A stretch of DNA of 64,000 bases, taken from assembly GCA_951406725.2 (NCBI GenBank), contig OX597833.1, forward strand, positions 32,364,001 to 32,428,000, given 5' to 3'. The notes below the pieces were generated by a model. The model searched no databases and had not been told where the DNA came from. It saw only the letters and a program-made list of their open reading frames with translations. The position numbers and the translations under genes were made by a program. Origin of the DNA: Octopus vulgaris. Taxonomy: Eukaryota. Of this stretch, positions 9,833 through 51,924 are shown one piece after another (the first letter of the stretch is position 1; each line of letters opens with the position of its first letter).

Positions 9833-9844
9833 AATAATAATAAT

Positions 9845-9996
<152 letters not shown>

Positions 9997-10050
9997 CATA
10001 ATAATAATAATAATATTATTATTATTAATAATAATAATAATAATAATAAT

Positions 10051-10624: not shown

Positions 10625-10663
10625 AATAATAATAACAATAATAATGATAATAATAATAATAAT

Positions 10664-11139: not shown

Positions 11140-11198
<59 letters not shown>

Positions 11199-11667: not shown

Positions 11668-11739
<72 letters not shown>

Positions 11740-18378: not shown

Positions 18379-18442
18379 TAACCACTGCTGCTGCTGCTAC
18401 TACTGATAATAATAAAAACAACAACAATAATAATAATAGTAC

Positions 18443-18913: not shown

Positions 18914-19183
18914 GTGGAGACCCCACGAAAAATCCACAAGCGTTACGACTACTAGGGCAACAGCCCTCTCCCCATCTTCCTCTCTCAGTCTTGGAAACTC
19001 AATGCCGCATGGTCAAAGTACGCCCGTTGACACAGAAATGTAAAAATCTTTAGATACAACAATATTATCTGTAAAAATTAAACAAAAGTTTACAGCTCAC
19101 AAACACTTGTCCTTCCTCTTTGAAATCCACGAACAGAGTCCAGTAGTGATTATGATGATGATGATGATGATAATAATAATAAC

Positions 19184-19260
<77 letters not shown>

Positions 19261-19261
<1 letters not shown>

Positions 19262-20413
19262 CTCTGAGGACTGGATGTTAAAACTTGTCTCAAAACATGA
19301 AAACAAGAAAGCATCATACTCAGTCACAAAATAGGCAAAGGAATATCTAAGTGAATTCCGAATACAACCAATTTCGGAATTAGAGTTAGACATACAAGAA
19401 ACAAGCACAGAAAAAGCTAGGCGCATGAAAACCCGTGCCAAAACTGCGGCCTTAGATATTCTGAATAATAAATGGCAAGAAAAACCTCTCTATGGCAAAT
19501 ACCCAAAGAGAGCGAATAATGCAGATATCGACAAAGCCCTGACCCATCAATGGCTAATGGCCTCTGGCTTAAAATCTGAAACAGAGGGGTTTATCATAGC
19601 AGCTCAAGATCAATGCCTACCAACAAGAAACTACCAAGCCAACATATTAAAGAACGGCAGTAGCCCAACATGTCGTGTATGCCGACAACAAAATGAAACC
19701 ATTGATCATGTTGTCTCCAAATGCAGTCTTCTAGCGCATACAGAGTACCTCAGTAGGCATGATAGAGCTGCACAATATATTCACTGGGTAATTTGCAAAA
19801 ACCTGGATTTGCCCCATGAAAAAAACTGGTGGGAACACAATCCACCTCCAGTGCTTGAAAATGACCACATCTCACTCCTCTGGAACTTCACCATTCAAAC
19901 TGACAGGAAGATAGATACAAATAGGCCAGACATCATATTGAAAGACTTCAGACAAAGAACATGCCTCCTCATTGATATGACTGTCCCAATCGATATAAAC
20001 GTATCTGTCAAGACCTAACAAAAAACTGAGCAAATATAAAGATCTTGAAATAGAAATCAGCAAAATGTGGAAGCTGAAGACTAAAACAATACCTGTTGTC
20101 ATAGGTGCCCTGGGAATGATAGCAAAAGGGGCTGATCGCTACCTAACTCAGATACCAGAAAACCCCAAAATGACAGAAATTCAAAAGATAGTGCTCATGG
20201 GAACTGCTCATATCCTACGCAAAATACTTTCTATGTAATCTCAAGGTTTAAAACAAACATTTTTTTTAGACATCCACTAGTACAACACAAAAAACAACCA
20301 AATATATGGCACACTAGGCATAACAACAACGTGAATTTCCAACCTGTAGTTTCTTGAGGTCTCCGGGTGAGACTTGGAGCCAACTTGTACAAATATAAAG
20401 CAAAAGTCAAACA
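19261..20413 (+). mobile_element. 5'-truncated R4/Dong copy
   Basis: Near-identical to 8651-9832. (AAT)n on both sides. Confidence 0.9.
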
Positions 20414-20449
20414 TATAATAATAATAATAATAATATTAATAACAATCAA

Positions 20450-20815
20450 AATGTCTCAAGAAAGGAATACGTCAAGCTTTCTTACAATAAAGATCTGCAA
20501 ATTGAAATCACAAAAATTTGGAAGCTTAGTACTACGATAACACCAGTAGTAATTGGTGCGTCGGAAATGATAAAGAAGTTAGCTGAGAAGTATATTAAGC
20601 AACTTCCTTGTAACTCCAATCTCCAGGAACTACAAAAGATAACCTTGATGGGTACAGCTCATATACTATGGAAAACACTCTCCATCTAAAATGGAATAAG
20701 TGTGGTGATAATTTTGTCATGCATAGCAAAACAAAAGTGCTTTTGTTACTCTTGGCCTCCGGAGGATGCCCGGTACTAAGGTAGCTGAAATAAAGTTATT
20801 ATGAAAGGAATCCAT
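20450..20815 (+). mobile_element. Degraded R4-like 3' end (different subfamily)
   Basis: Remnant of KDL.IEI...PVVIGA...ELQKITLMGTAHIL, followed by (AAT)n. Confidence 0.7.
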
Positions 20816-20816
20816 A

Positions 20817-23423
<2,607 letters not shown>

Positions 23424-23468
23424 GAATAATAATAATAATAATAGTAATAATAATAACAATAATAATAA

Positions 23469-23515
<47 letters not shown>

Positions 23516-23614
23516 ATAGAAATAGTAATAGTAATAATAATAATAATAATAATGACGACGACGACGACGACGACGATGACGATGACGATGATGATGAAGA
23601 TGATGATGATAATG

Positions 23615-23686
<72 letters not shown>

Positions 23687-24217
23687 GGCTCTCATGGCTT
23701 CTGATCTCAACTGATTGGAAGTGTTATCATGTACATTGTTTTGTCTTGGTATAAAATATGGGCTACAGCAAATATTCTGCTCAACACAACAGATTTGCTT
23801 GTCAGTTGTTTTACCTTAACCAGTTGAGCATGTCCCTTAGTGGCTGACGATATGTGCATCTCTGATCACGAGCAGAAGTAGTGAAGTAGTGGGGTAGCAT
23901 CATAGCCGTGTGTTGAAAGAAATTCTTGGTGGTTTGGATAATTCACCTTTGGAAACATGGGTGTTTCGTTCAACATCATTAAATCCTTATTCAGGTACCT
24001 TTTGAGTGGGATGGGCTACTCGACCAGAAGAAAATTCTAATGGGCTCCATCTGCAAGGTCATGCGCTGTTTATCGTGATATGAGATCACCATTTCGCGCA
24101 CATATGGTTGTGATGCATGTGCCTGGTGTATCCTTATCAGACGAGTTGTCATGATGGGTATACTGGGCTTCGTATATTTTACCCCAGTGTCGCTTTGATA
24201 GCATGCACTGCTCTCTC
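23687..24217 (+). mobile_element. Unclassified (AAT)n-associated repeat, copy 5
   Basis: Same sequence and 3' end as the other copies. Confidence 0.8.
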
Positions 24218-24248
<31 letters not shown>

Positions 24249-24249
24249 T

Positions 24250-24370
24250 TAAGAAGAAGAAGAAGAAGAAAAAGAAGAAGAAGAAGAAGAAGAAGAAGAA
24301 GAAGAAGAAGAAGAAGAAGAAGAAGAAGAAGAAGAAGAAGAAGAAGAAGAAGAAGAAGAAGAAGAAGAAA
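24250..24370. repeat. (AAG)n microsatellite, about 40 units; one of many (AAT)n, (ACT)n, (TA)n, (CA)n, (TATG)n and (TATC)n tracts
   Basis: Directly visible. Confidence 0.97.
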
Positions 24371-31268: not shown

Positions 31269-31545
31269 TACACACGAGGCTATAGTAGAAGAAGCCACTT
31301 ACCAAAGGTGCCAATTGAAGATAGAACAATGAAGCCTAATGATATTTCATTGCTAACTTTATGCCAGAAAGACTTCGTTCTTCACTCTCAGAGATGGGTA
31401 AAATAAGCGCAAGGTAAAATACTGCCATCGAAATACTCGTTTAAAACCCTTGAAGAAATTTACTGTACCAGTAAAGAAAGTTAAAGAAAGCAAGGAAAGA
31501 AAGCAAAGGTAGCAAAGAAAATCAATGATAAAATAACAGACGTAC

Positions 31546-31757
31546 GATCCATGGCCAGGATCCAGGGTAAGCTTCCGTGCCTCCCACTATATAGGAGATT
31601 CTCTTCCGGATGAAACTAATTCCACATTCATTCGTGTGACCAGTAGACTTCATAGCATTGCATACATTCTGGCCGATTTTGGAAATATCTTGGTGACAGG
31701 GTGGCGGTCTCTCACCAAGGGTTATTAGCTCCGAGTAAGATGCGGCAATGAATGAGA
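31546..31757 (-). CDS. Serine protease exon: propeptide and activation site (SFIAASYSELITLGERPPPCHQDISKIGQNVCNAMKSTGHTNECGISFIRKRISY-IVGGTEAYPGSWPWI)
   Basis: Hand translation shows IVGG...PGSWPW. Acceptor tttgaag|, donor |gtacgt, 212 nt (phase 1 to phase 0). Not in the ORF track. Confidence 0.93.
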
Positions 31758-31872
31758 CTTCAAAGATAGAAAGTAGAATTGGAAATTCAGGACATATGGA
31801 ATTGAAATAGAAAATATGTGCTTATACATATATGCATGCATGCAGACATACATACACACAAACACACACACA

Positions 31873-31962
<90 letters not shown>

Positions 31963-32156
31963 CATACACACACACACTCATACACCACGCACACAGACAC
32001 AGACACACGCACACACGCACATACACACGTATATATATATATATATATAGAAATTCGGGGTGAGTACTTGATAATTATAAGCACCTGTGTATACCGTTTG
32101 GTGGTGTAGGTGGTGGAGTAAATTGATCAAAATAAAAACATGATGCGAAGGATTCA

Positions 32157-32234
32157 GCGGTACATATGTTTCGGGCCTTTATTAGACAGATTTATAACAA
32201 TGCATAATGTATGTCTGTGGCCTTCTTCAGCCGC
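32157..32234 (-). ncRNA. Type I hammerhead ribozyme motif (mirror copy, sense to the protease pre-mRNA)
   Basis: Reverse complement of 33530-33607. Confidence 0.75.
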
Positions 32235-33529
32235 GCACAACAGCTTCCACAAGGACATGTGTTACATCAAAAATTCTTGGTTGGGGATGCAAATCCTCTC
32301 ATTCGCGTACGACATATTGCTGCAGCAGCATAGAATTGAAGCGTCCATCTCTTTCTTCTCTCAATGTAGAATGAGGAAATTTGGATGTTGAAGTAATGCA
32401 AATAAATAAATACATATATAGACGTGAAGATGGAGGGGCGAGAATTCAGGACGAGGGATAAAAAATGTATAAAAAGTGTAAGTATAGAAAAATATAAAAA
32501 TGTAGAGTATAAAGATATAAAGGGATATAAGGAGATGTAAAGGGGGTATAAAGAATATAAAGAAATATAAAGAAATATAAATGAATGTAAAGGCATAAGG
32601 TTATAAAGTAAAAATAGAAATAGAAATAAAAGTAAAAAGTAAAAAAATAAAAATAGGAATAAACATGATAAAAATGTAAAAAAATATAAAGATAAGGGAT
32701 GTATAGAGGTTACGGACCAAACATGGTGGTCAGGAGATTGAAAAAATTTAGTTGTAGAAGTTTTGGGTGTCAATAAATCAACAGTGTCGTCTGGGGACCT
32801 AGTGTGTTGTAAATCAGAGTTGTTGAGCGTTTAATCTAGTTCTTTGAATTAATTGGTCATCTTGTACATACATAGCATCATGATGGTATGTATGTATGTA
32901 CAAGATGACCAATTAATTCAAAGAACTAGATTAAACGCTCAACAACTCTGATTTACAACACACTAGGTCCCCAGACGACACTGTTGATTTATTGACACCC
33001 AAAACTTCTACAACTAAATTTTATCAATCTCCTGACCACCATGTTTGGTCCGTAACCTCTATACATCCCTTATCTTTATATTTTTTTACATTTTTATCAT
33101 GTTTATTCCTATTTTTATTTTTTTACTTTTTACTTTTATTTCTATTTCTATTTTTACTTTATAACCTTATGCCTTTACATTCATTTATATTTCTTTATAT
33201 TTCTTTATATTCTTTATACCCCTTTACATCTCCTTATATCCCTTTATATCTTTATACTCTACATTTTTATATTTTTCTATACTTACACTTTTTATACATT
33301 TTTTATCCCTCGTCCTGAATTCTCGCCCCTCCATCTTCACGTCTATATATGTATTTATTTATTTGCATTACTTCAACATCCAAATTTCCTCATTCTACAT
33401 TGAGAGAAGAAAGAGATGGACGCTTCAATTCTATGCTGTTGCCGCATTATGTCGTACGCGAATGAGAGGATTTGCATCCCCAACCAAGAATTTTTGATGT
33501 AACACATGTCCTTGTGGAAGCTGTTGTGC

Positions 33530-33607
33530 GCGGCTGAAGAAGGCCACAGACATACATTATGCATTGTTATAAATCTGTCTAATAAAGGCCCGAAACATAT
33601 GTACCGC
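33530..33607 (+). ncRNA. Type I hammerhead ribozyme motif
   Basis: GCGG-CTGAAGA-aGGCC...GGCCc-GAAA-CATATG-TA-CCGC. Stem I GCGG/CCGC, palindromic stem III, GUA cleavage triplet. Confidence 0.75.
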
Positions 33608-33624
33608 TGAATCCTTCGCATCAT

Positions 33625-33661
<37 letters not shown>

Positions 33662-34455
33662 TAAGTTCGTTAGATCGAAACAATATATACACACACAACA
33701 GTATTACGTAAATATCAAACTTGGTACATAAGTATCGGCGAATGATATTCATGCAGTGTATGTAGACAATTAGACCCAGCTGAGTAAAGAAATCCACTCT
33801 TGAGCTATTCACACGTGTACCTTATATTAAATATACAGTCCATAATATTTCTAGAGAGGTAAAAAAATTTTAATGAGTTACAGTAGAGATACAGATGTCA
33901 TTTTTTATATATTTATATATCTTGTTGTATGCTTTATACTTTTATATACCTTATATTTACAGTTTCAAGTTTAAAATTTTTTATATCTGAATACACTCCT
34001 TTATATATTTTTAAATAACGTAATTACACTGGTCAAGAATTTTTTTTTGAAATGGTGTCAAGACACCAAATATCTTTTTTAGCTAATTTGAGAGCGCTGG
34101 ATCTGAAAAACGACCTTACTTTTTCTTGGTTAGCTACAGTTTTTGCTGTACAGAAATGCCTAATTTTTTTTTTTGGGGGGGGGGGGGGGGCAAAAAAAAG
34201 CATTTTTTCATTTGTATTCTGTATATTTGATATTCGTATTTTACAAAATTATATACGTATATTTATTTATTTAATTATTTTATTGTTTTTATCGTGGACC
34301 TGAAAAGTGGTTATATTTAAATTGAATTGATTTTACTATTATCAGTTTTTAAATATAGCCACGAAACACGTGTAGTCATTTTACCAATCATATACTTTTT
34401 ATTTATTATTTTGTACATTACTTAATCATTGGTATATGTTATTATGTGTTTTTTC

Positions 34456-34492
<37 letters not shown>

Positions 34493-34596
34493 AAATAAGG
34501 ATAAAATCTTTATAAGAAATTATCAGTAGTTAGCGTGAAAAACCTCGTAAGAGAAAAAATCTGTAAATTTTTCCACTTTGAAAATATTTATTTATA

Positions 34597-34740
34597 TTAT
34601 ATAGAGGGTACTATTATTCATAGGTACCGCACGCTAGGAGGTACTCTTGCAGTCAAAACTACTAAAATAAAATTTATTTTAGTAGTTTTCACTGCAAGAG
34701 TCCCTCCTAGCGTGCGGTACCTATGAATAATAGTACCCTC

Positions 34741-34750
<10 letters not shown>
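34597..34750. repeat. ~150-bp near-perfect hairpin next to (TA)n (duplicated at about 40027-40183)
   Basis: tatagagggtactattattcataggtaccgcacgctagg...cctagcgtgcggtacctatgaataatagtaccctctata, with 2 arm mismatches shared by both copies. Confidence 0.92.
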
Positions 34751-34838
<88 letters not shown>

Positions 34839-35615
34839 TGTCCTTTCTAAATTCAGGCTTGTGCCTATAATAAGGAAAATATCTCGAGCAGACTCGGTTT
34901 ATTTGCGTTGTTTCTTGGAAATTCTGCTACCCTGCAATGTGAGTTCGCCTTTGGCTTGTTACCTGTTTTATATTATTTTGTGAATAGAACTGTTGTCCGT
35001 TGTCAGACAGAAATTTTCGTCTTACGGGGCGGAAATTATATTGTGGAACACTGTTTAAAAAATATTTTGTGAATTATTTGTGAAATATTTTTTACCAGTT
35101 GACGGGTTGTGAATTTTCTGTTAATTTGTCATTTTTTGGCAAAGATTAAAAAAATTGTCATGGAATTCAACATTGAATCCAACCTAGACTTCTCCGAGAT
35201 GGGAAAAGTAAATGAAAGTCAAAATGCGAGTTCAAAGGATATACAAAAGGGGAAGGAAAAACAAAGTTTAAAATTAGAGAACAACAAGTGGGTGGAGGAA
35301 AGAAAAAAGGGGAAAGGAAGAAAAAGAAATAAAAGAAAAAGAAACAGAAAATTAGGGAGAGAATGCAAAAAATAGATAGAGGTAGAGAGAGTGAAATGAT
35401 GGCAATCCAATAATTATCTAATGAAAGTTAGATACTTCGTTCAGCTTGCGAAACGAACACATATAAAACGCACACATAATACAAACATACATACAAATAC
35501 CATACATATATAGACACACATACAAATATACAAATAAATATATACGCAAATACATGCCCACATATATATTTATATATATATGCATGCACGTATATATATA
35601 AATATATATACATGC

Positions 35616-35677
<62 letters not shown>

Positions 35678-35788
35678 GTACACACATATATACACATACA
35701 TACACATACCTACAATATGTACATACACATAAATATATAGAGACATGTCTTCACATGAAGACAAATATATACACCATAACGTATATAC

Positions 35789-37111
35789 CAATACCCCAAA
35801 AAGGCGATTTGTCCCTCGTCACCAACTACAGGGGCATATCTCTAATGTCAATTGCTGCAAAACTGTACAACAAAGTGATCCTAAATCGTCTTGTCCTTTT
35901 TGTTGAACCTTTGCTCCGAAAGAACCAAAATGGATTCAGACATGGGCGCTCAACGCTGAGCCAGATACTATGCCTGCGCAGACTTATTGAAGAATCAAAA
36001 GCATTTAATCGGGATCTTGCAATGGTATTTGTAGACTTTTCTAAAGCGTTCGATTCTGTAGATAGGTACAAGATGTTTGAAATCCTTAAGCTCTATGGGA
36101 TACCAGACAAAATTATTTCTGCCATCAAGGTCCTCTACACAGATACGTTTTCAACCATCTTAACCCCTGATGGAGAAACATCATCTTTCCCAATCAAAGC
36201 CGGAATACTGCAGGGAGACACACTTGCCCCATTTCTTTTCATCATTGTTGTTGATTATGTGCTACGTATGTCAGTTGATACCATCTCTGGCAAGGGCTTT
36301 GAAATAAAACCAAGAAGAAGTTCCAGACACCCAGCTGAGTACTTGACAGACACTGACTTTGCTGACGACATCGCTCTTATCAGTGATTCTCTCTCCAATG
36401 CCCAGTCTCTTTTACAATCTCTTGAACAAGCCTCAAATTGTGTAGGTCTTTACCTCAATGAGGCCAAAACTGAATACATAAACACGTGCCTGTCCAACAG
36501 TGATTGCATCATCCACACTCTCAACAGTGCGCCTTTAAATATGGTTTCTGATTATAAATATCTTGGGTCATACATATCATCATCTGGAAAAGACTTTCTA
36601 ACTAGAAAGGGTATGGCCTGGTCCGCCTGTAATGACATGCATAAGATCTGGTCATCAAATCTAAGTAGAGACTTCAACTTGAAATATTCAAAGCCACAGT
36701 CGAACCAATTCTACTATATGGCTCAGAAACCTGGACGTTATCAAAGAAGCTTGAGAGGCGGTTGGATGGAACCTACACTCGCCTCCTTATGAGAGCTGAA
36801 AATATCCCGTGGAAGCGCCATCCAACCAAAATGCAAATATATGGGAAATTACCACCTTGTGAAAGGTAGGAGAGTCCAGTTTGCTGGACATTGTTGTAGA
36901 GCTGAAAAAGAAGTAATTTCTACTCTTTTCCTCTGGAAGCCATCTACTCGCAATACCAGAGGGCGCACACTCTCCTACCCTGATGTAATATCCAGGGATA
37001 CAGGCATCCAGCAACAGGACCTCCGTAATGCCATGATGGACCGTGAAGTCTGGCGTAACATAGTAAATTCCATTGTCTCAACCACGGTCGAACAATGATG
37101 ATGATGATGAT
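35789..37111 (+). mobile_element. 5'-truncated RTE-type LINE with 8-bp TSD GTATATAC and a (TGA)n tail
   Basis: YRGISLMS, QNGFR, FVDFSKAFDSV, GILQGDTLAPFLF, FADDIAL. TSD at 35781-35788 and 37112-37119. The empty site is visible in the right IR arm. Confidence 0.95.
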
Positions 37112-37599
37112 GTATATACGCAATCATTTTTAAAATCTGTCTGGTATATATAATATTAAAATGTTAAAATAAGGAAATTGCACAATAAATTAATATAACA
37201 TAATTAAATGCGTGAGGGAACAATAAAAATAAATCTTTGGCGAAGCTTAAGCTTAAATTTGTAAAACAGACGAAGACTTTCTGAAAAGTGAAGTCGAAAT
37301 ATACACTAGCATTGTAATTAACGAAATAACTATAAGGTGTAAATTCAAATTCAAATGCGACAGTCAAAATTTTCCGAAAGTCAAAAGATTTTACCCATTC
37401 GGTATTTTATTGGTTGACACTTTGAACCTCGCGGCGTGCCTGCAGGAATTTAAAATTCGCGTCTCTGGTTCAAAGCATGTTTATCCTGGAACATGTTTCG
37501 TATTTATGTGCTTACTGTAGTGTAACCCGCTCCTTTTTTTTTTTAGAAAGTTTGAGCGATCTCCACAAGCAGGAAGAAGGAAATGGAACTTTACCCATT

Positions 37600-38700
37600 G
37601 GATTTCCTTCTAAATATTATACCCATCCCGGCACAGAAGCAATACATCAAAAGTCTTATCGAAAAACCGGAGGATTTTATCTGAAGAATGAGATGGAGAT
37701 GGAAAGCCTTCTTCTTTGATACAAACCAGAAATCTAATGGAAACAAATATGGCCTTAAATATTCTAAAAATCTACCACCTATTTCGGAATAGTAAGCCTT
37801 TGAAAAAGATCTCTTCTGGCTTATTAGAAATATTAAATTCCACATATTCAACAACCAACTCCAGAGCGATATGGAGTTAAAAGAGAGACATAAAGAACAT
37901 GGATAAGACCTTCATAAATATTGCCGTCAAAAAACTTATATGCGGCTGACAAAAATGTTTATAAACGTCTAATTTCGAACAGCATCAGAGACACTTACAA
38001 AAAAGATAACTCAAGTTTATGTAAAGAGGTGAAATTGGAGGCAAGAAGTATTACTAACAACCTTAAGGTTAGTGATAGGATAGAATACCTCCCCAACCAC
38101 ACCAACCCTTTATTACCCTGAAAGACTACAAAGCTAATTTCAAGAGAAACCTTGGATCTTTTCGGTTTCAACGGCAGTTTTTTCTAGCGGTGTCATATGA
38201 AATTGTCACCCATAATTATGATTCTAGTATCGATCTATTGCATTTCAATCTGTTTTAGGGTTAGGGTTAGTTAGGGTTAGGGGTGGGGGAAGGGTATCTT
38301 TTTTCTTCACAAATGTAAATAAACCCAATCTGTTTCTTAAACGAGGGACATATTCATACGGCACAGAATGTTTTTTACCTCAGTAGACGTCATTGATTGG
38401 TTGAAATTGCAGAAATTGAAGAAAAAAACAAATATCTTACAAACTATAGAATTTTTTCAATAAAGCCAAGAGAAAAAGATGTTTTATAAACAGATTCTAC
38501 CAGTATACGAAGTTTAAAAGTGTTTAGTTACGTGGAAAATATTAAAAAAAACTGCCGTTCAAACCGAAAAGATCCGAAATCCTAAATGTAGACTAATTAA
38601 TCCAGCTAAAACTGAAATTGGTTCAAAGGAATTAACCATAAGCATAACTGCAAATTTACGCATTTTGATATTGTCAATTTTTACCCGTCAATATCTTTTT
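37600..38700 (+). mobile_element. Degraded Penelope-like RT N-terminal region in the IR spacer
   Basis: Remnants AFEKDL..LIRNIKF, TYKK, FITLKDYKANF..NPKCRLINPAKTEIG, FDIVNFYPSI. Confidence 0.7.
38154..38575. mobile_element. 422-bp MITE with ~30-bp TIRs (GGATCTTTTCGGTTT[C/G]AACGGCAGTTTTTT), probable 8-bp TSD, internal TTAGGG repeats
   Basis: TIRs at both ends. Flanks gaaacctt / gaaatcct. Removing it restores the NFKRNPKCRLINP reading. Confidence 0.88.
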
Positions 38701-38702
38701 AA

Positions 38703-38856
38703 GGTGGTGAGTTGGCAGAAACGTTAGCATGCAGGCGAAATGCTTAGCGGTATTTCGTCTGTCTTTACGTTCTGAGTTCAAATTCCGCCGAGGTCGACTT
38801 TGCCTTTCATCCTATCGGGGTCGATAAATTAAGTAACAGTTGCGTACTGGGGTCGA
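38703..38856 (+). mobile_element. tRNA-derived SINE
   Basis: A-box-like TGGCAGAAACGTTAG and B-box GAGTTCAAATTCC. Related minus-strand copies at 12415-12520, 56190-56360, 57200-57420 and 57440-57590. Confidence 0.8.
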
Positions 38857-39105
38857 TTTAAGCTTAAGCTTCGCCAAAGATTTATTTTTATTGTTCCCTC
38901 ACGCATTTAATTATGTTATATTAATTTATTGTGCAATTTCCTTATTTTAACATTTTAATATTATATATACCAGACAGATTTTTTAAATGATTGCGTATAT
39001 ACGTTATGGTGTATATATTTGTCTTCATGTGAAGACATGTCTCTATATATTTATGTGTATGTACATATTGTAGGTATGTGTATGTATGTGTATGTATGTG
39101 TGTAC

Positions 39106-39160
<55 letters not shown>

Positions 39161-39945
39161 TGTATATATATTTATATATATACGTGTATGCATATATATA
39201 TCAATATATATGTGGGCATGTATTTGCGTATATATTTATTTGTATATTTGTATGTGTGTCTATATATGTATGGTATTTGTATGTATGTTTGTATTATGTG
39301 TGCGTTTTATATGTGTTCGTTTCGCAAGCTGAACGAAGTATCTAACTTTCATTAGATACTTATTGGATTACCATCATTTCACTCTCTCTACCTCTATCTA
39401 TTTTTTGCATTCTCTCCCTAATTTTCTGTTTCTTTTTCTTCTATTTCTTTTTCTTCCTTTCCCCTTTTTTCTTTCCTCCACCCACTTGTTATTCTCTAAT
39501 TTTAAACTTTGTTTTTCCTTCCCCTTTTGTATATCCTTTGAACTCGCATTTTGACTTTCATTTACTTTTCCCATCTCGGAGAAGTCTAGGTTGGATTCAA
39601 TGTTGAATTCCATGACAATTTTTTAAATCTTTACCAAAAAATGACAAATTAACAGAAAATTCACAACCCGTCAACTGGTAAAAAATAATATTTCACAAAT
39701 AATTCACAAAATATTTTTTAAACAGTGTTCCACAATATAATTTCCGCCCCGTAAGACGAAAATTTCTGTCTGACAACGGACAACAGTTCTATTCACAAAA
39801 TGACAAAATAATATAAAACAGGTAACAAGCCAAAGGCGAACTCACATTGCAGGGTAGCAGAAATTCCAAGAAACAACGCAAATAAACCGAGTCTGCTCGA
39901 TATATTTTCCTTATTATAGGCACAAGCCTGAATTTAGAAAGGACA

Positions 39946-40037
<92 letters not shown>

Positions 40038-41129
40038 GAGGGTACTATTATTCATAGGTACCGCACGCTAGGAGGGACTCTTGCAGTGAAAACTACTAAA
40101 ATAAATTTTATTTTAGTAGTTTTGACTGCAAGAGTACCTCCTAGCGTGCGGTACCTATGAATAATAGTACCCTCTATATAATATAAATAAATATTTTCAA
40201 AGTGGAAAAATTTACAGATTTTTTCTCTTACGAGGTTTTTCACGCTAACTACTGATAATTTCTTATAAAGATTTTATCCTTATTTTAAAATTAAATATAT
40301 ATATATATATATATCTATATATATATACATATATATATATAATAAAAAACACATAATAACATATACCAATGATTAAGTAATGTACAAAATAATAAATAAA
40401 AAGTATATGATTGGTAATATGACTACACGTGTTTCGTGGCTATATTTAAAACTGATAATAGTAAAATCAATTCAATTTAAATATAACCACTTTTCAGGTC
40501 CACGATAAAAACAATAAAATAATTAAATAAATAAATATACGTATATAATTTTGTAAAATACGAATATCAAATATACAGAATACAAATGAAAAAATGCTTT
40601 TTCTGCCCCCACCCCAAAAAAAATAGGCATTTCTGTTCAGCAAAAACTGTAGCTAACCAAGAAAAAGTAAGGTCGTTTTTCAGATCCAGCGCTCTCAAAT
40701 TAGCTAAAAAAGATATTTGGTGTCTTCACACCATTTAAAAAAAAAAAAAAATTCTTGACCAGTGTAATTACGTTATTTAAAAATATATAAAGGAGTGTAT
40801 TCAGATATAAAAAATTTTAAACTTGAAACTGTAAATATAAGGTATATAAAAGTATAAAGCATACAACAAGATATATAAATATATAAAAAATGACACCTGT
40901 ATCTCTACTGTAACTCATTAAAATTTTTTTATCTCTCTAGAAATATTATGGACTGTATATTTAATATAAGGTACACGTGTGAATAGCTCAAGAGTGGATT
41001 TCTTTACTCAGCTGGGTCTAATTGTCTACATACACTGCATGAATATCATTCGCCGATACTTATGTACCAAGTTTGATATTTACGTAATACTGTTGTGTGT
41101 GTATATATTGTTCCGACCTAACGAACTTA

Positions 41130-41164
<35 letters not shown>

Positions 41165-41401
41165 AATTGCAGCGTGGAAGGTGTTTATTAGCCATTTAAG
41201 AAACACACAAAAGCCGTTCGATTCACTTCAACATTTAAGTTTAAACTTAAATGTTGACAAATTAAACTTAAATGTTGAAGTGAATCGAACGCCTTTTGTG
41301 TGTTTCTTAAATGGCTTATAAACACCTTCCACGCTGCAATTGTTTTCGTTTCAGCACACGATCTCAGATCAAATTACTTGCTATGCGAGTACATCTCCGT
41401 A

Positions 41402-41473
<72 letters not shown>

Positions 41474-41530
41474 GTGTGTATGTGCGTGTGTGCGTGTGTC
41501 TGTGTCTGTGTGCGTGGTGTATGAGTGTGT
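38856..41530. repeat. Right arm of giant inverted repeat
   Basis: Reverse complement of the left arm, with few mismatches. Confidence 0.93.
41161..41402. repeat. ~185-bp palindrome plus a one-sided tail, inserted in (TA)n
   Basis: aaacaattgcagcgtggaagg...ccttccacgctgcaattgttt, then ~55 nt of unique tail. (TA)n on both sides. Confidence 0.88.
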
Positions 41531-41542
41531 TTCTACACATAA

Positions 41543-41574
<32 letters not shown>

Positions 41575-41639
41575 GTACATATGCGTGTGGGCTTGTAACA
41601 TGGGTATAAACTGAAACTATATTAAAAGAATTCTGATAC

Positions 41640-41670
41640 CAAAAGAGCAGAACACTGAAAATTGCATATA

Positions 41671-41712
<42 letters not shown>

Positions 41713-41751
41713 TATGTGTATGTGTATGTGTATGTATATGTATGTGTGTAC

Positions 41752-41786
<35 letters not shown>

Positions 41787-42740
41787 TGTATATATATTTA
41801 TATATATACGTGTATGTATATATACATAAATATATATGTGGGCATGTATTTGCGTATATATTTATTTGTATATTTGTATGTGTGTCTATATATGTATGGT
41901 ATTTGTATGTATGTTTGTATTATGTGTGCGTTTTATATGTGTTCGTTCCGCAAGCTGAACGAAGTATCTAACTTTCATTAGATACTTATTGGATTGCCAT
42001 CATTTCACTCTCTCCACCTCTATCTATTTTTGCATTCTCTCCCTAATTTTCTGTTTCTTTTTCTTTTATTTCTTTTTCTTCCTTTCCCCTTTTTTCTTTC
42101 CTCCACCCACTAGGTTGGATTCAATGTTGAATTCCATGACAATTTTTTAAATCTTTTAAATGCAATATTTGCTTCTCAGAAAAGCTCTTTATCCTGTTCC
42201 AGGATAAACATGCTTTGAACCAGAGACGCGAGATCTTAAATTCCCGCAAGCACGCCACGAGGTTAAAAATATCAACCGATAAAATACCGAATGGGTAAAA
42301 TCTTTTGACTTTCGGAAAATTTTGATTGTCGCATTTGAATTTGAATTTACACCTTACTTTGTATTACAATGCTACGGTATATTTCGACTTCACTTTTAAG
42401 AAAGCCTTTGTCTGTTTTACAAATTTTACAAATGAAAGTCAAAATGCAAGTTCAAAGGATATACAAAAGGGGAAGGAAAAACAAAGTTTAAATTTGTAAA
42501 ACATATTTATTTGTATATTTGTATGTATGATTGTATTTACATGTAATTCTGTGTGCGTTTTTGTATGTGTTCGTTTCCCAAGCTGAACGAAGTATCTAAC
42601 TTTCGTTAGATACTTATTGGAATGCCATCATTTCACTCTCTCTACCTCTATCTATTTTTCCCTTTCTCTCTCTAATTTTCTGTTTCTTTTTCTTTTATTT
42701 CTTTTACTTCCTTTTCTCCTTTTCTTTCCCCCCACTTGTT
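41640..42740. repeat. Scrambled extra copies of IR-arm and spacer sequences
   Basis: 41710-42150 is a direct copy of 39070-39630 with a deletion. 42200-42420 is an inverted copy of 37258-37495. 42500-42740 is another partial copy. Confidence 0.85.
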
Positions 42741-43733
42741 ATTCTCTGATTTTTTCTTTTCTTTCTTTCGCCTGTAGCAACTAACTTGTATAAGCATGCA
42801 CCAGGAGATTTTGTGCGCATGCGTATGTGTTCGTGCATACATTTATATGCATTTGTATATATTTATGTTGCCTATATTTGTCTGTATATGTATGTAGCCC
42901 ATGTACCTACGTCTGTATGCTTAGTGTATATACGTATAATATAGATTGCTTGGTATGTGTATATATTGCTAAATGTATATGTAATTTAGCGAGAACATTT
43001 TTTAAACGGATATATCTTTTAATTTATTATTATTTTTAAAGATAATTATTTACCCTGGGTATTCAGGCCTTTTTCTTTATTTATAAGCTATTTTTGAATT
43101 AAGGCTGTCTTCGATTTTTATAGTAATATGATTTTAATCCGCAATTTGCTATTTCATGCAACTCGTTATTGAAAGGACCGGGAGTTGAAAGGACCAATGA
43201 AACAAAACCATTTTCAAATGTGTATATATCAAATTAATTATATTTCTGCATATAACTTTATCTTGCTTCATTCTAAACAAAACTTTCCGACGAACGGGAA
43301 CGGAAAACTCTGAGTAATAATTTTTGTGATATTTTTGCTGCTTTTTAATAAAGCATATTATTCTCCCTCTGGTATTCAAGTACTATTTTTCCACCTTGTT
43401 TCGCATTTATGTGCTTACTCTTGCATATATATATTTATACGCATACACACACACGCGCACGCACGCGCACACACACACACATACACACACACACACACAC
43501 ACACATATAATACATACAGATATGTAATATAGAGTGCAACGACTATTGATACATTGACATAGAAACTTAAATTCTTGAATATAAGTTATTCAATAAATAT
43601 GTATACATATATGCATATACATATATATACATATGTGTATGAATATAGGTATACGTGTGTGTATGTCTATGTGTAATGTATTCAGTGTATGTGTAATGTA
43701 TTATGTGTATTTAAAACGTTTTAGAAAACTTAC

Positions 43734-43755
43734 CCAGCAAAAGAAGGCAGAACAT
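43734..43755 (-). CDS. Serine protease (S1A) first coding exon: start of signal peptide MFCLLLL(V)
   Basis: Minus strand reads ttcag|aattccgttgaacacttgcgATGTTCTGCCTTCTTTTGCTGG|gtaagt. The phase-1 end joins the phase-1 start of the 31757 exon to give MFCLLLLVSFIAASYS, a hydrophobic signal-peptide-like N-terminus. Confidence 0.72.
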
Positions 43756-45051: not shown

Positions 45052-45508
45052 CGATCGACCAGACTATCAGACGTTGTTACACATCGCCGGTTACGATGCG
45101 CTTTCGATCGTTTTAGGCTTCGAATGATGTCACACTGTTGACTAGATGAGCAGGTCAACATTCCCCGCTGATCGAAAGGGGCGCTGAAGTAACGTGAAAT
45201 GAAGTGTTTTGCTCAAGAACACAAAGCGCCGTCCGGTTGGGAAATCTAACCCACGACCTAGCAATAGTGAGTGCAACAACCTAACCACTAGGCCACGTGC
45301 TGCATGGCTACAGTCAAATGACTGAAACAAATAAAAGAATATATATATAATTATATATATTATAATTTAGGATATCTACGAGATACCGCCATGCTGAAGA
45401 TAGCAGCCAGAATCTGACTCTAAAACCACCTTAAATGTTCATATAGCACAAGGAGAGAAGACAAAAAGACAAAAAGACAAAATAAAACTAGTAAAAAATT
45501 ACTGGATA

Positions 45509-45567
45509 ATTCCAGATCCCGGATTTCTGGCTTTGCATTTAGAAATGCTTTGCCTCATCAGTGGAAT
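45509..45567 (-). ncRNA. Type I hammerhead ribozyme motif (inverted copy)
   Basis: Reverse complement of 45915-45973. Confidence 0.78.
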
Positions 45568-45914
45568 ATACTCAGAAAGTAACATAAATACACATATATA
45601 TGTATACATACAACGTACGAATACTTTACCTTGAAGGTTTTTATTTCCATGCTGGCCACTTAATAGGATCATTATTTAATTTGAATTAACGATCTTATTC
45701 TTATTTATATAAATTTTAAATTTATTTAATCATTGCATTTACTGCAGTGATGTTTTAACCATATCGAACAGGGAGTTACGAAGCGGACAATTTAAACTGG
45801 TCGTGTTGCATACGTGCATATATATATATATATGTATATGTTCGTATATGTAAGTATTCGTATGTTGTATGTATATATATATATATGTGTGTATTTATGT
45901 TACTTTCTGAGTAT

Positions 45915-45973
45915 ATTCCACTGATGAGGCAAAGCATTTCTAAATGCAAAGCCAGAAATCCGGGATCTGGAAT
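45915..45973 (+). ncRNA. Type I hammerhead ribozyme motif
   Basis: ATTCCA-CTGATGA-GGCaaaGCATTTctAAATGCaaaGCCa-GAAA-TCcggGA-TC-TGGAAT. 6-bp stem I, intact core, AUC triplet. Confidence 0.78.
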
Positions 45974-46429
45974 TATCCAGTAATTTTTTACTAGTTTTAT
46001 TTTGTCTTTTTGTCTTCTCTCCTTGTGCTGTATGAACATTTAAGGTGGTTTTAATATCAGAGGCTGGCTGCTATTTTCAGCATGGAAGTATCTCGTAGAT
46101 ACCCCAAATTATAATTTTAATAATAATTATTACCTTTCAAGGTTTTTATTTCCATGCTGGCCACTTGATAGGATCGTTATCTAATTTAAATTAACGATCT
46201 TATCCTTATTTATATAATTATATATAGATATATATAAACGACGGGTTTACTTATATATATATGTGTGTGTGTGTGTATGTGTGTGTATGTGTGTGCTGGG
46301 TGTGATGCTATTAGAAGCTAACAATCCACTCTGAGTACCAGAAGAAATGTTGCTAACACTGAACCGTAATAGAAATGCGAAACGTGTGTAACTGTGAAAC
46401 ATGTTTTAACTTGTCAGAGATAAATTTTG

Positions 46430-47439: not shown

Positions 47440-50400
47440 GGATACGTGGGCTTGCAGAATAACTCTGTCACTATTCTCCTTCCAGGAAACTTAACTCTTG
47501 TGTCCAAAAATTTCATGCTAGCTTTTGAAAAACTAGACGTAAATTTTATGTTGGACTTGAAACCACAACAGTCACAGAAATACAAGAAAGCAATTAAACT
47601 ATCCTGTGATTCCTCCCAAACAAAAAAGACGTCATTAATGAACCGTAGCTAAAGTATTGGTTCATAACCATGAAAGGATCTGAATGTCTTCAGTAGCTGT
47701 GTCTCGAATGTCGTCATGGGAGTACCCATTGCTGGTAAAATCTTTGTCCAAATTTCATTGTGTTACTTTGTTACACAAATCTCAATAAGCTACAGAGAAA
47801 ATATGATGGAATACTGTTGTTTGACCGCTTTTCGAAGGCATCCATGCATGCTTCTAACCCTTCATCCTGGTCAATATTGGGATATAAGGAAGAAACATCC
47901 ATGGTTACCAAAAAACAGTTCTCGACACAGCCTCGGTGCTTAAAAAAGTTGTTGATTTTAGACACAAAATCAAAGTATCCCGAATATAGGAACTAGATCT
48001 TTTTGCTACAAGGAGTAGAAAGTCATGCAGCCATTCCGAAATCTTGGCTGTACAGCATTCATATCCGCTGCAAATTGTGGGTGCATTGAAGGAAATCTTT
48101 CGAACTTTTTGTGTATTTTAGGGAGACCATGAAATACAGGTGTTCTTTCTGAACGTAAAATCCTGGATTCGGCCTTATTAATAAAATTGTTTTCCTCCAT
48201 TTCCAGAATTATTTTGTGAAGTTCCTCTCTGTAATTGGAGTTTGGATCGACAGGTAATTCTTCCTATGAAGTTTTATCATTTAAAACTTCACAAGCCGAA
48301 ATGTACTCACTTTTGTCCATATTTACGATAGCGCCTTTATCTGCCACTTTAATAATAGAATCGTTATTAGCTAGACGTCGGCGTACGTAACGTTAGGAAT
48401 TTGTGAGGTTATTCCAGAACTTCTTTCCAGTTTTGAGGCTTTTTCTAATACCTGTCTGATAAGATTCAAGAAATTCCAGTAGTGCTTGTGAACGTCCATC
48501 CCGAACTTTTTCTGGATACCAATTGGGATTCTTTTCAATCCAATTATGCCAGATTTGATGATCACCATTTTAATTTTCAGTAAGCATAGGGTTTTCTGAC
48601 TCCTCGTTACCAGTTTTTCCAAAAAATATTCCTTCAGCTTGTGACGGCGGACAAACTGAAATAGCTCAAGCTAGTTTATTCTTGTCGAAATTCTTAGTGC
48701 TTGAGCAGAAACTCAGTCCAAGCTCCAAGACTGAGACATCGTCGGGCGAAAGTCTTAGTATAGATAAATTTATGACTGACTTATTCTCTAGTGTGATGGA
48801 TTTTCTCGGGCAAATGGTTTTCAGAAGCTTACCATCATTAGATTCCTGACTACTTTTTGGGATTTGCTCGAAATCTTCACTTAAAACACGGAACCTATTG
48901 GGTGATAAAATTTGTTCTGAATGTTCACGTGAGAAGTTATATTTTTAGTCGTCTTTCTAGGGGTAATCCATTTCTGGGTTGGTGATAGAAAGTGAGTGAC
49001 TTCTGTGGTTTTTGTAGACATTTGAAAAACTTTCGGGAAAAAAAAAAATTATTGTTTTCGACGCAAAATCTTAAATGTGCTCACATTTTTGACTGATCGT
49101 TTCCAATGACCACTTCAAATACATACGCCAGGGAAAAGGCCACAATCATATGCGTCAACTCGGGGATTAGTTATATAAAGTTGTTGAACTGCAGGAATAA
49201 CGGTTGTTTGTGGAGAGTACATTGTTATTTGTACTATTAGGTCCTGTGAAACTGGTAAGTTCAAAATGTCATAAATATAATCATCTCCGAAAAATTGGTC
49301 GACAAAACAAAATGATTGTTCCTGGTGCGATGAATGAATAGTATGCGATGTCGACTGTATTTTAGAAATTTCGTGTGAGAAAAAATGGTCGATGGTATTG
49401 AAATTTCAGGAATATTTTCCGCTACAATTTTCAAACCGGCGTCAATATCACTTAATATTTGTCACAAAAGTAAAAATGACTTCTCCTCATATTGCAAAGC
49501 AAATGTTCTCAACCAAAATGTTTCCTTGCCCACTGGCTCAGGGGAATGGGAAATCAGCTTTTTCAGCTACTTTTCTTTTTTTGTCTTCAGGGCCGAAATT
49601 TCTTTTTTTTTTCAAAGTTCATCAAACAGTTATATAAATAATTCAAACGATTTTTAGAACATACCTTTTCAAAGACACTATTTTAAAAGGATTGACGTAA
49701 CTCTTCACAAAGACAATTACTGTCTGCACCAAGCAGTATTAATTTTGAACGATAGTGTTCAATAATAGCTTCCATTACGTTAAATGATTTGATCTCACCA
49801 ATTAATTTAATCTTTTGAAGCAATGAATTGATGCACTCATTGGTATATTGATGTAAGACCGTCCAGTATAACTTTTCGTGTTTGCATGTTTCCAGAAATG
49901 ATAAATGGCTTTTGATTTCAGCACGAAAACGATTAAGTTTTTTCACTGATACGAATGTCGATTTCTCAATTTCTGATTCGTATTTGAATGGTACGAAATC
50001 CATTGGCCCAGGACTGGGCTCAACACTGGGTTCAAGCCAGTTGTAAGAAGGAATAAAACGCAACAGCTGTAATTTACACTACGATTTTCCTTAGACACTG
50101 CTTTGATAACTTCCAGAATTTCTATATGTTTCAATTCTTATTCTGTGTACCATAAAATCAATCATCTCTATCTACTTGATTTTGATATTTTAAAAGGATT
50201 GACGTAACTCTTCACAAAGGTAAACAGTCAAGACAAAAAGCGTGATTAGATTGTAACAGATATTTTATTGGTCAAACGATATTTCGACAGTAAGCCTGCC
50301 TTTGTTGAGTTCAAAATAAGTGATAAAAATTCAAAATTATAGAAATTTAAATTTGAAGTATGAACGAGAGAAACCAGCGCCCACACGTTGATGGAATGAC

Positions 50401-50480
50401 ATCAGTATTTAAGTTTCACTTTTATAACAGACGAAAAGAAAAAAAAAAAACAGAGAAAAGGCAGAAAAATAGAGGAGAGT
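47440..50480 (-). mobile_element. Penelope-like element 5' part (pLTR + N-terminus + RT), degraded
   Basis: VLELGLSFC, IKVADKGA, PVFHGLPKIHK, FLVTMDVSSLYPNI, AMGTPM, FLDTRV..TELFCKPT. Confidence 0.88.
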
Positions 50481-50539
50481 AAAAAAGAAAGGGAAAAAGA
50501 ATATTTAATCAAACGGTTTTGTATAAATTTGATGATATT

Positions 50540-51800
50540 CCCCTGTCATATTATTCATTCCTCCGGGGCGTTCATACACATCATATTATTCGGTCAAATC
50601 TGAAATCCTAATTTTTGAGGATACAACGGATATGTACTGACATAAGGGATTACTGGAAACATGCAAATACTTTTGTACATCATCATGTCAAGTGCGGTTA
50701 CAGTGAATCACGATTAAAGGAAATAGCAAATGAAATAGCTAAGATTAGCAAAGATAGTCAAACCTTCACGCATAATTTTAGCAAATACAATACAATAGAT
50801 GATAGAATTTCTATAGTGATTAACTGGCACCGAAATTTCGCTGGCATTTCAAATGTTGCAATGAAAGCTACCGGCATGTGGCGAAAAAATATCTGCGTTT
50901 CAAACAGATTTTTCCTCAGCCGCCTACTGTAGCCTTTCGACGGAATAAATATATAAGAGATTTATTTCTGACTCCAAGAAAACGAACATTGTAGTATCTG
51001 CACGCTGTACCTTGAAAAACAGTCGCAGGAGAGGTAAGCCTTGTTCATTGTGCAACAACATGAGTCAAGTGGATACCATCAGGAATCATAACAGAAATGT
51101 TTATACAGAAGGTAGGACATGAAGAGATTCCAATTTGGTATACGCGGCAAAATGCACGAAATACAACCTGATTTATGTTGGTTGTATAATAGAACAATTA
51201 AACAAAAGATTTGATGGGCACAGATTGGATGTCAGGCACAATAACAGTAGTTCCACAGAACTTGATTAACATTTTGCTTCAAAGATTTGATGGGCACAGA
51301 TTGGATGTCAGGCACAATAACAGTAGTTCCACAGAACTTGATTAACATTTTGCTTCAAACGGCTGCAATTTTGAAAAAGACTTGAAAGTGCATATTCTAA
51401 GAAAATATTCTGAATCTGTTTCACTTTCACTTCTCAAAATACACGAGGAGAAATATGTTTGCGGGTTATTAACATCACGCCCTGGAGGAATGAATAACAG
51501 GAGAATATCATCAAATTTATACTAAACTCTTTGATTCTTCTGTTTTCTTTTTCTTTTTTCTTTCCTCTTTCTGTCTTTTTTATCTACCTTTTTCTTTTCG
51601 CCTTTATAAAATTGAAACTTTAAGGCTGATGATGTCATTCCATCAACGTTTGGAGGCTGGTTTCTCTCGTTCATACTTTAAATATAAATTTCAATAATTT
51701 TGAATTTTTATCACTTCTTACTTTGAACTCGACAAAGACAGGCTTACTATCGAAATATCGTTTGACCAATAAAATATCTGTTACAATCGAATCTCGCTCT
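50540..51800 (+). mobile_element. Penelope-like element 3' part (thumb, Cys-rich linker, GIY-YIG endonuclease) + pLTR
   Basis: LRIQRICT, PTVAFRR, PCSLC, NLVYAAKC..LIYVG..LNKRFDGHR. 51600-51790 is an inverted copy of 50248-50430. Internal ~77-bp tandem duplication at about 51205-51357. Confidence 0.85.
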
Positions 51801-51847
51801 TCTTCTTGACTGTTTACTTTTGTGAAGAGTTACATCAAACTTTTTAA

Positions 51848-51924
<77 letters not shown>

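What the first reader, a model, noticed from the sequence alone, without database searches (positions are those of the whole stretch)
31970..41530. ~9.5-kb nested fold-back inside a host intron, with different palindromic insertions at the same (TA)n site in each arm
Seen: arms of ~2.4 kb shared sequence (31970-37258 vs 38856-41530) around a 1.6-kb spacer, all within the protease intron 31758-43733. At the equivalent (TA)n tract, the left arm holds a 1.5-kb palindrome (32050-33627) and the right arm holds an unrelated 185-bp palindrome (41161-41402). Both arms share a 150-bp hairpin with the same 2 mismatches, so that hairpin predates the duplication. Only the left arm has the RTE, so the RTE postdates it. 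Inference: the pre-mRNA could form multi-kb dsRNA, a strong ADAR substrate if the host is a coleoid cephalopod (known for extensive A-to-I editing), and a possible siRNA source or cruciform hotspot.
Basis: partly seen in the sequence, partly recalled or inferred. Interest (0 to 1): 0.72.

Follow-up and report, generated by a model that had tools for sequence, protein, structure and literature searches.

The report
Local inverted duplication with Penelope stubs
About 2.4 kb of repeat-derived DNA in an octopus protease intron is present twice in mirror image, likely copied by a DNA replication or repair slip, and the hairpins inside it are likely ordinary stubs of Penelope-like jumping genes that favour TA repeats, so it looks like a common genomic scar; RNA editing there is untested.

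Summary
The fold-back is real in the assembly. About 2.4 kb is shared at 0.95% substitution divergence, inside a 12-kb first intron that an annotated Octopus sinensis protein supports. It is not a foldback transposon: the arm is a patchwork of dispersed repeats found whole only here, with no target-site duplication. Its inner end cuts an old Penelope-like element (PLE) and fuses to a SINE. This fits a local template-switch duplication with deletion. The 1.5-kb palindrome is the 3' end of a young Hydra-type PLE plus its inverted copy. The two small hairpins have the same head-to-head-with-tail design and recur at many loci. All three families sit at (TA)n (21/23, 13/21, 19/23 copies, against 4.5% background), which explains the double hit. 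In 800 kb of control DNA I found 23 palindromes and one 2.9-kb, 98% inverted repeat. Editing is plausible but untested and would be ordinary. The RTE-after-duplication order is parsimonious, not secure. A haplotype chimera is not fully excluded. The scan has noted PLE stubs and local inverted duplications elsewhere in this genome.

The parts
43734..43755 (-). First coding exon of a hepsin-like trypsin-family protease (MFCLLLL, start of a predicted signal peptide)
   Evidence: Matches N-terminus of O. sinensis P0121; donor GTAAGT at 43733
31534..31757 (-). Second coding exon of the protease (contains IVGG)
   Evidence: tblastn 95% to P0121
31758..43733 (-). Intron 1, 11,976 bp, holds the whole structure
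31970..37258 (.). Left arm (ancestral copy by inference), with the PLE palindrome and the RTE inside
31970..32049 (.). Outer CA-rich piece shared with 41453-41530
   Evidence: 34-mer occurs twice in the assembly
32050..32882 (-). 3' 833 bp of a young Hydra-type PLE, ending at (TA)n; minimal hammerhead motif at 32230-32161 on the pre-mRNA strand
   Evidence: 95-99% copies genome-wide; linked to an RT + GIY-YIG ORF in L086-L088; motif
32883..33627 (+). Inverted copy of the same PLE end, lacking the last 82 nt; joined through the palindrome CATG; hammerhead motif at 33534-33603
   Evidence: 4 of 687 sites differ between the halves
33667..33900 (.). Old dispersed repeat, 77-90% to other copies, unassigned
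34222..34440 (+). Dispersed repeat whose relatives carry a minimal hammerhead motif (core changed in this copy); likely a PLE end
   Evidence: 4 of 18 loci; PLE RT beside L016
34490..34760 (.). Head-to-head stub of a ~487-bp hammerhead-bearing tandem repeat (retrozyme-like); forms the 177-bp hairpin; mirrored at 40018-40288
34881..35269 (+). 5' fragment of an unassigned low-copy element
   Evidence: L090, 83%
35248..37493 (-). Inverted 3' end of an old PLE, interrupted by the RTE; the duplication breakpoint 37258 lies inside it
   Evidence: contiguous in other copies and beside a GIY-YIG ORF in L089
35789..37111 (+). 5'-truncated RTE-type LINE with (GAT)n tail and 8-bp target duplication; left arm only
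37494..38698 (+). Decayed 5' part of the old PLE ORF, interrupted by a very high-copy ~425-bp element with 33-bp terminal inverted repeats (38154-38575)
38699..38861 (+). SINE-like repeat, 3'-truncated at the junction with the right arm
38856..41530 (.). Right arm (derived inverted copy by inference)
   Evidence: inner junction in an exact short-read contig, 38832-38927
41161..41402 (+). Head-to-head stub with 57-nt tail of a repeat family whose longer copies carry a G3-C8 swapped hammerhead motif
   Evidence: 10 of 21 loci
41531..41665 (.). 135-bp near-unique filler between the right arm and the third copy
41666..42156 (.). Third, partial inverted copy of 35734-35141 with a 99-bp internal jump at 2-bp microhomology
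42157..42773 (+). Direct 3' end of the old PLE (GIY-YIG C-terminus and terminal repeat), 83-90% to the left copy

Best explanation
This is a single-locus inverted duplication of about 2.4 kb of intronic repeat debris, likely made by microhomology-mediated template switching during replication or repair, and likely decorated afterwards by independent (TA)n-targeted Penelope-like insertions and one RTE. Shown: the arms, junction sequences, uniqueness of the arm, family identity of each piece, TA bias and a third copy. Inferred, step 1: an old PLE lay here in the usual inverted arrangement (3' end inverted at 35248-37493, ORF start at 37494, direct 3' end at 42157-42773). Step 2: synthesis switched from the SINE at about 38860 to the opposite strand at 37258 (2 bp of microhomology certain, up to 6), copied to 31970, and switched again to give the third copy, replacing the middle of the old PLE. 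Step 3: each arm's (TA)n then took a different PLE-type stub; each stub is palindromic because the enzyme likely primes on both strands from two fixed RNA sites and the two copies join head to head. Step 4: if the gene is transcribed, the intron would fold and be edited as a bystander, with no selected role.
For: No third whole copy: every arm segment searched gives the two arms first and then only partial matches at 95% or less, apart from the local third copy; the outer 34-mer has 2 hits. The old PLE end runs through 37258 on the left and in other loci but is cut and fused to a SINE on the right. In 274 bp the left, right and third copies carry 1, 2 and 2 private substitutions, a star shape (read from the alignment). 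The 833-bp unit flanks an RT + C-terminal GIY-YIG ORF; 2 of 3 full elements examined carry inverted arms of 1.6 and 2.8 kb. (TA)n lies at the tail end in 21/23, 13/21 and 19/23 copies vs 4.5% of control 40-mers. The palindromic form recurs in 15 of 23 and at least 9 of 21 other loci, with varying turn points but a fixed outer end (position 96 in 9 of 15; 58-60 in 7 of 9). Control: 23 palindromes and 8 inverted-repeat rows in 800 kb, one with 2.9-kb arms at 98%. Literature passages: inverted truncated copy, tail and (TA)n targeting in PLEs (PMC8557442, PMC3846280); cleavage and extension of both strands from two RT start sites in vitro (PMC11167929); opposite-strand non-tandem duplication with deletion as a recurring class (PMC5829575).
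Against: No read spans both arms; no listed contig spans the laid stretch. The RTE has more private changes than its inferred age predicts (13/1,304, p about 0.04). The palindrome counts are enriched because the query was itself a palindrome. No PLE ORF lies within 1.5 kb of any locus of the two small families, so they are assigned by architecture and motif only. Rfam gave no hammerhead hit and the single-strand fold does not recover the hammerhead (z +1.0). Microhomology at the main junction is short.
Confidence: 0.75

Rival explanations
1. Haplotype chimera: the segment was moved and inverted on one haplotype, and the assembly joined the two alleles through the spacer, so the arms are alleles and not copies.
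For: About 1% divergence with presence/absence insertions is what two alleles of a polymorphic animal could look like (inference). It would remove the RTE age tension. No spanning record was seen.
Against: Three distinct versions of one segment exist, so at least one duplication is real. The inner junction occurs in an exact 96-bp contig of run X2 at depth 32 against 17 for the unique spacer contig. That contig has only 24-30 letters on the SINE side, short of the tool's 31-letter rule; contig depth is no copy number; X2 may be the assembly's source. It needs a cut-and-paste inversion without transposon ends.
Confidence: 0.08
2. PLE-driven duplication: PLE nicks at (TA)n or the old PLE's inverted ends triggered the copying, so the two different stubs are part of the event.
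For: The inner breakpoint lies in an old PLE end, the last junction lands on its direct 3' end, and the outer breakpoint is only ~80 bp beyond the TA tract holding the stubs. PLEs can carry host DNA between terminal repeats (PMC3846280, passages).
Against: Both stubs lie inside the arms, with shared unique DNA beyond them. About half of the arm (by coordinates) derives from PLE-like repeats, so a breakpoint in one is expected. No PLE terminal repeat or target duplication bounds the copy. The 0.8-kb direct repeat around a control PLE proved older (2.06%) than that PLE (1 change in 1,403 sites).
Confidence: 0.08
3. The fold-back is a selected RNA element (ADAR substrate or siRNA source) that regulates the protease.
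For: It lies in a supported intron and offers exact duplex blocks up to 308 bp. Young repeats are the main ADAR targets in animals (PMC9989829, passages); squid ubiquitous edits fall mostly in introns and 3' UTRs overlapping repeats (PMC9068888, passages).
Against: It is young (0.95%), built wholly from mobile-element debris, and has taken three insertions that break the pairing. Comparable structures occur in control DNA. Being edited would not show function.
Confidence: 0.05
4. A foldback-type DNA transposon with long terminal inverted repeats.
For: Kilobase inverted arms around a spacer. Merlin-type foldbacks were noted elsewhere in this genome (e1-9995917, unchecked).
Against: No second copy; no flanking target duplication; no transposase-like ORF among ORFs of 100 aa or more; ends fall in a microsatellite and in the middle of an older element.
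Confidence: 0.03

Closest known systems
[quoted passage not shown]
   Same: Nearby segment copied in inverted orientation, loss at the target site, a second partial copy, edges near transposon fragments.
   Different: Ancestral state here is inferred from repeat anatomy, not from an outgroup genome; the copy has since taken three insertions.
Hydra clade of C-terminal EN+ Penelope-like elements (Craig et al., PMC8557442, passages seen)
   Same: RT then GIY-YIG, DKT, CxCX5C linker, no CCHH, CxxC and CxH, hammerhead motif, (TA)n target, inverted truncated copy with one-sided tail.
   Different: RWA in place of RWK; tail of 70-82 nt against 30-40 nt described; the three full copies examined have stops or frameshifts; no tree was built.
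Inverted-pLTR insertions with a palindrome at the junction (Adineta vaga Penelope, PMC3846280, passages seen); two RT start sites in vitro (PMC11167929, passages seen)
   Same: Head-to-head copies, short overlap at the turn, one arm longer by a fixed tail.
   Different: Here solo stubs without ORF; target duplications cannot be read inside (TA)n.
Non-LTR retrozymes, non-autonomous PLE derivatives (10.64898/2026.07.22.740005, first fifth of the text read) and minimal hammerheads (PMC4209133, passages seen)
   Same: The 177-bp hairpin family has a ~487-bp tandem unit with a type I hammerhead motif and no ORF nearby.
   Different: The window copies are cut before the motif; no RNA evidence.
Intronic inverted repeats as ADAR substrates (PMC9989829, PMC9068888, passages seen)
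   Same: Young, near-identical inverted copies in one pre-mRNA.
   Different: Arms come from a local duplication, not two insertions of one family; editing is untested.

Membership tests
Foldback-type DNA transposon | Dispersed copies sharing both termini | tested here: not met
Foldback-type DNA transposon | Target-site duplication flanking the whole element | tested here: not met
   the left flank is microsatellite, so a very short one could be obscured
Foldback-type DNA transposon | Transposase in the spacer or a related autonomous element | tested here: not met
   spacer holds PLE ORF debris, a small TIR element and a SINE
Template-switch local inverted duplication | Single-locus copy near its source, in opposite orientation | tested here: met
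Template-switch local inverted duplication | Microhomology at junctions | tested here: inconclusive
   2 bp (up to 6) at 38856; 2 bp at the jump in the third copy; other junctions in simple repeats
Template-switch local inverted duplication | Both copies on one DNA molecule; ancestral allele in an outgroup | not testable with these tools
   no long reads listed, no relative genome held
EN+ PLE, Hydra clade (parent of the 1.5-kb palindrome) | RT followed by C-terminal GIY-YIG endonuclease | tested here: met
   L086, L088; Atlas hits to RT clusters at 0.93-0.96; Pfam gave no hit
EN+ PLE, Hydra clade (parent of the 1.5-kb palindrome) | DKT, CxCX5C linker, CxxC and CxH, no CCHH | tested here: met
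   ADKTG, CQLC, CIH in L086; CNCICASEC in L088; one Cys between GIY and YIG
EN+ PLE, Hydra clade (parent of the 1.5-kb palindrome) | RWK motif | tested here: inconclusive
   RIRWAAY in L086; RMRWKAF in the old spacer family, L048
EN+ PLE, Hydra clade (parent of the 1.5-kb palindrome) | Hammerhead motif in the terminal repeat | tested here: met
   motif in 19 of 23 other copies; 2 hits in 30-45 kb vs 0 in 100 shuffles; cleavage untested; not found by Rfam
EN+ PLE, Hydra clade (parent of the 1.5-kb palindrome) | Insertion into (TA)n; tandem or inverted structure with tail | tested here: met
   21 of 23; L086 tandem, L087 and L088 inverted
EN+ PLE, Hydra clade (parent of the 1.5-kb palindrome) | Placement in an RT phylogeny | not tested
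   no reference set at hand
PLE-mobilised stubs (185-bp and 177-bp hairpins) | Hammerhead motif, TA target, head-to-head form with fixed tail | tested here: met
   8 of 24; 10 of 21
PLE-mobilised stubs (185-bp and 177-bp hairpins) | Link to a PLE ORF | tested here: inconclusive
   0 hits within 1.5 kb of the fetched loci with three PLE queries
ADAR-edited intronic dsRNA | A-to-G clusters in RNA against same-animal DNA | not testable with these tools
   no RNA reads available

The most novel reading that the evidence does not exclude
Penelope-like elements are an engine of kilobase inverted duplications of host DNA in octopus: nicks at (TA)n and old inverted PLE ends set off template switching, seeding introns with long, young double-stranded RNA that would load ADAR and RNAi, and this locus records the whole sequence of events.
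Probability: 0.1. Interest if true: 0.55.

Novelty: new member of a known kind. Interest (0 to 1): 0.15.

Why it matters
As read here it matters little: it is one more local rearrangement in repeat-dense DNA. It is a clean worked example of how octopus introns gain long hairpins. PLE stubs are palindromic by design and target (TA)n, giving about one hairpin of 100 bp or more per 35 kb in the control DNA. If PLEs also caused the larger duplication, they would be a general source of ADAR substrates in an animal known for heavy editing, and that can be tested genome-wide.

Tried and rejected
Reads: no RNA holder listed, which is no evidence either way. Contigs of four runs were laid on the spacer and inner junctions only; high-copy repeats swamped the tables and no piece spanned the stretch. 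The outer arms and the two palindromes were not checked against reads. Rfam: 91 hits below gathering score, all microRNA-type hairpin matches, no hammerhead; rejected as generic. Neptune or Naiad assignment of the young PLE: dropped, since the nuclease is C-terminal and CCHH is absent. Long target duplication by a PLE at the control locus: rejected on age. Fossil A-to-G editing between the arms: no skew (by eye: A/G 4, G/A 2, C/T 3, T/C 1). Arm-to-arm gene conversion: not seen in the 274-bp three-way comparison (left-right 3, left-third 3, right-third 4 substitutions), low power. Two different source RNAs for the 1.5-kb palindrome: not supported, as both halves share 2 private and 3 subfamily variants. 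A first regex for the swapped-core motif failed by design error and was redone. Tissue of expression of the protease: one literature search, listing only, nothing specific. No paper on this locus appeared in seven searches; supplements were not read, and the Hydra family lists in PMC8557442's supplement may already hold this family.
Full report
Setting. The window is G000:C20:32364001-32428000 of a 2.80-Gb assembly. Its minus strand encodes a trypsin-family protease whose exons match the annotated Octopus sinensis protein P0121 at 92-100%, so the host is an octopus. P0121 starts MFCLLLLVSFIAASYS. The first seven residues are encoded at 43755-43734 and the rest from 31757, which supports intron 31758-43733.

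Observation. The self-comparison confirms the arms, the spacer, both palindromes, the shared hairpin and the one-sided RTE. Outside simple repeats the main arms differ at 17 of 1,795 sites (0.95%, 95% interval 0.55-1.52). A 34-mer from the outer CA-rich piece occurs exactly twice in the assembly, so the arms do extend beyond both insertions. The RTE has an 8-bp target duplication and the right arm has the empty site.

The arm is not a transposon. Four segments were searched in the genome (best 40 candidates scored each). Each returned the local copies first and then partial matches to separate repeat families. There is no target duplication at the outer ends and no transposase.

Ancestral layout (inferred). 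Positions 35248-37493, without the RTE, are one repeat: the 3' end of an old PLE on the minus strand. It is contiguous in other loci and abuts a GIY-YIG ORF in L089. It is followed head to head by the decayed start of a PLE ORF (37494-38698), and a direct 3' end of the same family lies at 42157-42773. That is the usual inverted PLE layout with the middle missing. The middle is now occupied by a truncated SINE, the right arm, 135 bp of near-unique filler and the third copy. The right arm starts inside the old PLE end and is fused to the SINE, so it is the derived copy. Microhomology there is 2 bp against two SINE copies in the window, and up to 6 bp if the SINE was the variant implied by where a contig begins. 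The third copy has a 99-bp jump at 2-bp microhomology. In 274 shared bases the three copies carry 1, 2 and 2 private substitutions, so they are of similar age. This fits serial template switching, the class called non-tandem opposite-strand duplication with deletion in PMC5829575 (passages and Table 2 seen).

The 1.5-kb palindrome. Its left 833 bp belong to a young family with 95-99% copies on many contigs. Full elements carry an RT followed by a GIY-YIG nuclease, with DKT, CxCX5C, CxxC and CxH and no CCHH. These are the Hydra-clade marks in PMC8557442 (passages); RWK is RWA here, Pfam found nothing and no tree was built. A minimal hammerhead motif is present in both halves and in 19 of 23 other copies; none arose in 100 shuffles. 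Rfam and single-strand folding do not recover it, as may be expected for motifs proposed to work as dimers (PMC4209133, passages). The inverted half lacks the last 82 nt and joins through CATG. Of three full elements examined, two have inverted arms of 1.6 and 2.8 kb and one is a direct tandem.

The small hairpins. Both are stubs of dispersed families. The head-to-head form recurs at 15 of 23 and at least 9 of 21 other loci, with varying turn points but a nearly fixed outer end of the shorter half; the share is inflated because the queries were palindromes. Longer copies carry hammerhead motifs: standard core in 8 of 24 loci of the 177-bp family and G3-C8 swapped core in 10 of 21 of the 185-bp family. 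No PLE ORF was found within 1.5 kb of them. The fixed tail matches the two RT start sites and two-strand priming reported in vitro for an anole PLE (PMC11167929, passages); applying that here is inference.

The double hit. Alternating TA of 10 nt or more lies at the tail end in 21 of 23, 13 of 21 and 19 of 23 copies of the three families, against 4.5% of control 40-mers. Two different stubs in the two copies of one TA tract therefore need no special cause.

How unusual. Four 200-kb control blocks, taken at round coordinates and compared in 10-kb pieces, held 23 palindromes of 100 bp or more and 8 inverted-repeat rows with arms of 300 bp or more. One has 2.9-kb arms at 98% around 1.2 kb and is a PLE with its inverted copy. 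None of the eight was shown to be a patchwork duplication like this one, so the host-DNA type is rarer than PLE-made fold-backs, but long intronic duplexes are common.

Order of events. The hairpin predates the duplication. The 1.5-kb stub (4 of 687 between halves) is compatible with being younger. The RTE has 13 private changes in 1,304 sites against 19 close copies, about twice the expectation (p about 0.04). Source-specific variants inflate such counts (2 are shared by both halves of the 1.5-kb stub), so insertion after duplication remains the simplest order but is not secure.

Assembly. An exact 96-bp contig of run X2 crosses the SINE-arm junction at about twice the depth of the unique spacer. 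It falls short of the 31-letter bridging rule, and X2 may be the assembly's source. No record spans both arms, so a haplotype chimera keeps about 8%.

Function. Exact duplex blocks reach 308 bp, so the pre-mRNA could pair. Young repeats are the main ADAR targets in animals (PMC9989829, passages), and ubiquitous squid edits fall mostly in introns and 3' UTRs overlapping repeats (PMC9068888, passages). Editing is thus likely if the gene is transcribed, but as a bystander effect; nothing here was tested on RNA.

Verdict. Real, explained by known processes, new only as an instance. Interest 0.15.

Noticed in passing
L189 (G000:C9:60010814-60017714): [quoted passage not shown]
   Followed up: partly
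window 45347-46127 and 50186-51851: Two older inverted pairs (about 280 bp at 90%, about 390 bp at 83%) upstream of the protease start codon.
   Followed up: no
window 14560-16317: GC-rich 21-bp minisatellite of about 82 units inside a protease intron, beside retroelement-like ORF fragments; open frames of 460-650 codons on both strands.
   Followed up: no
window 5800-11700 and 18400-24300: Nested, partly tandem copies of an RT-bearing retroelement with (AAT)n tails, 85-93% alike, in two protease introns.
   Followed up: no
window 38154-38575: Extremely high-copy ~425-bp element with 33-bp terminal inverted repeats and an apparent 4-bp GAAA duplication, inserted in the old PLE ORF.
   Followed up: partly
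window 32230-32161 (minus strand): An intact-looking minimal hammerhead motif lies on the pre-mRNA strand of intron 1; it would be buried in the 750-bp hairpin.
   Followed up: partly
L141 (G000:C10:3202031-3202419): A palindrome of the 177-bp family turns at family position 245-246, close to the predicted hammerhead cleavage site; the window's 185-bp stub also turns near its family's predicted site.
   Followed up: no
L168-L187 block, G000:C1:50108304-50109963: Overlapping inverted repeats of 500-600 bp at 99.7-100% identity.
   Followed up: no
window 63538-63858: Open frame ending in a stretch that by recall resembles an ammonium-transporter/Rh-type membrane protein exon (plus strand); not searched.
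   Followed up: no
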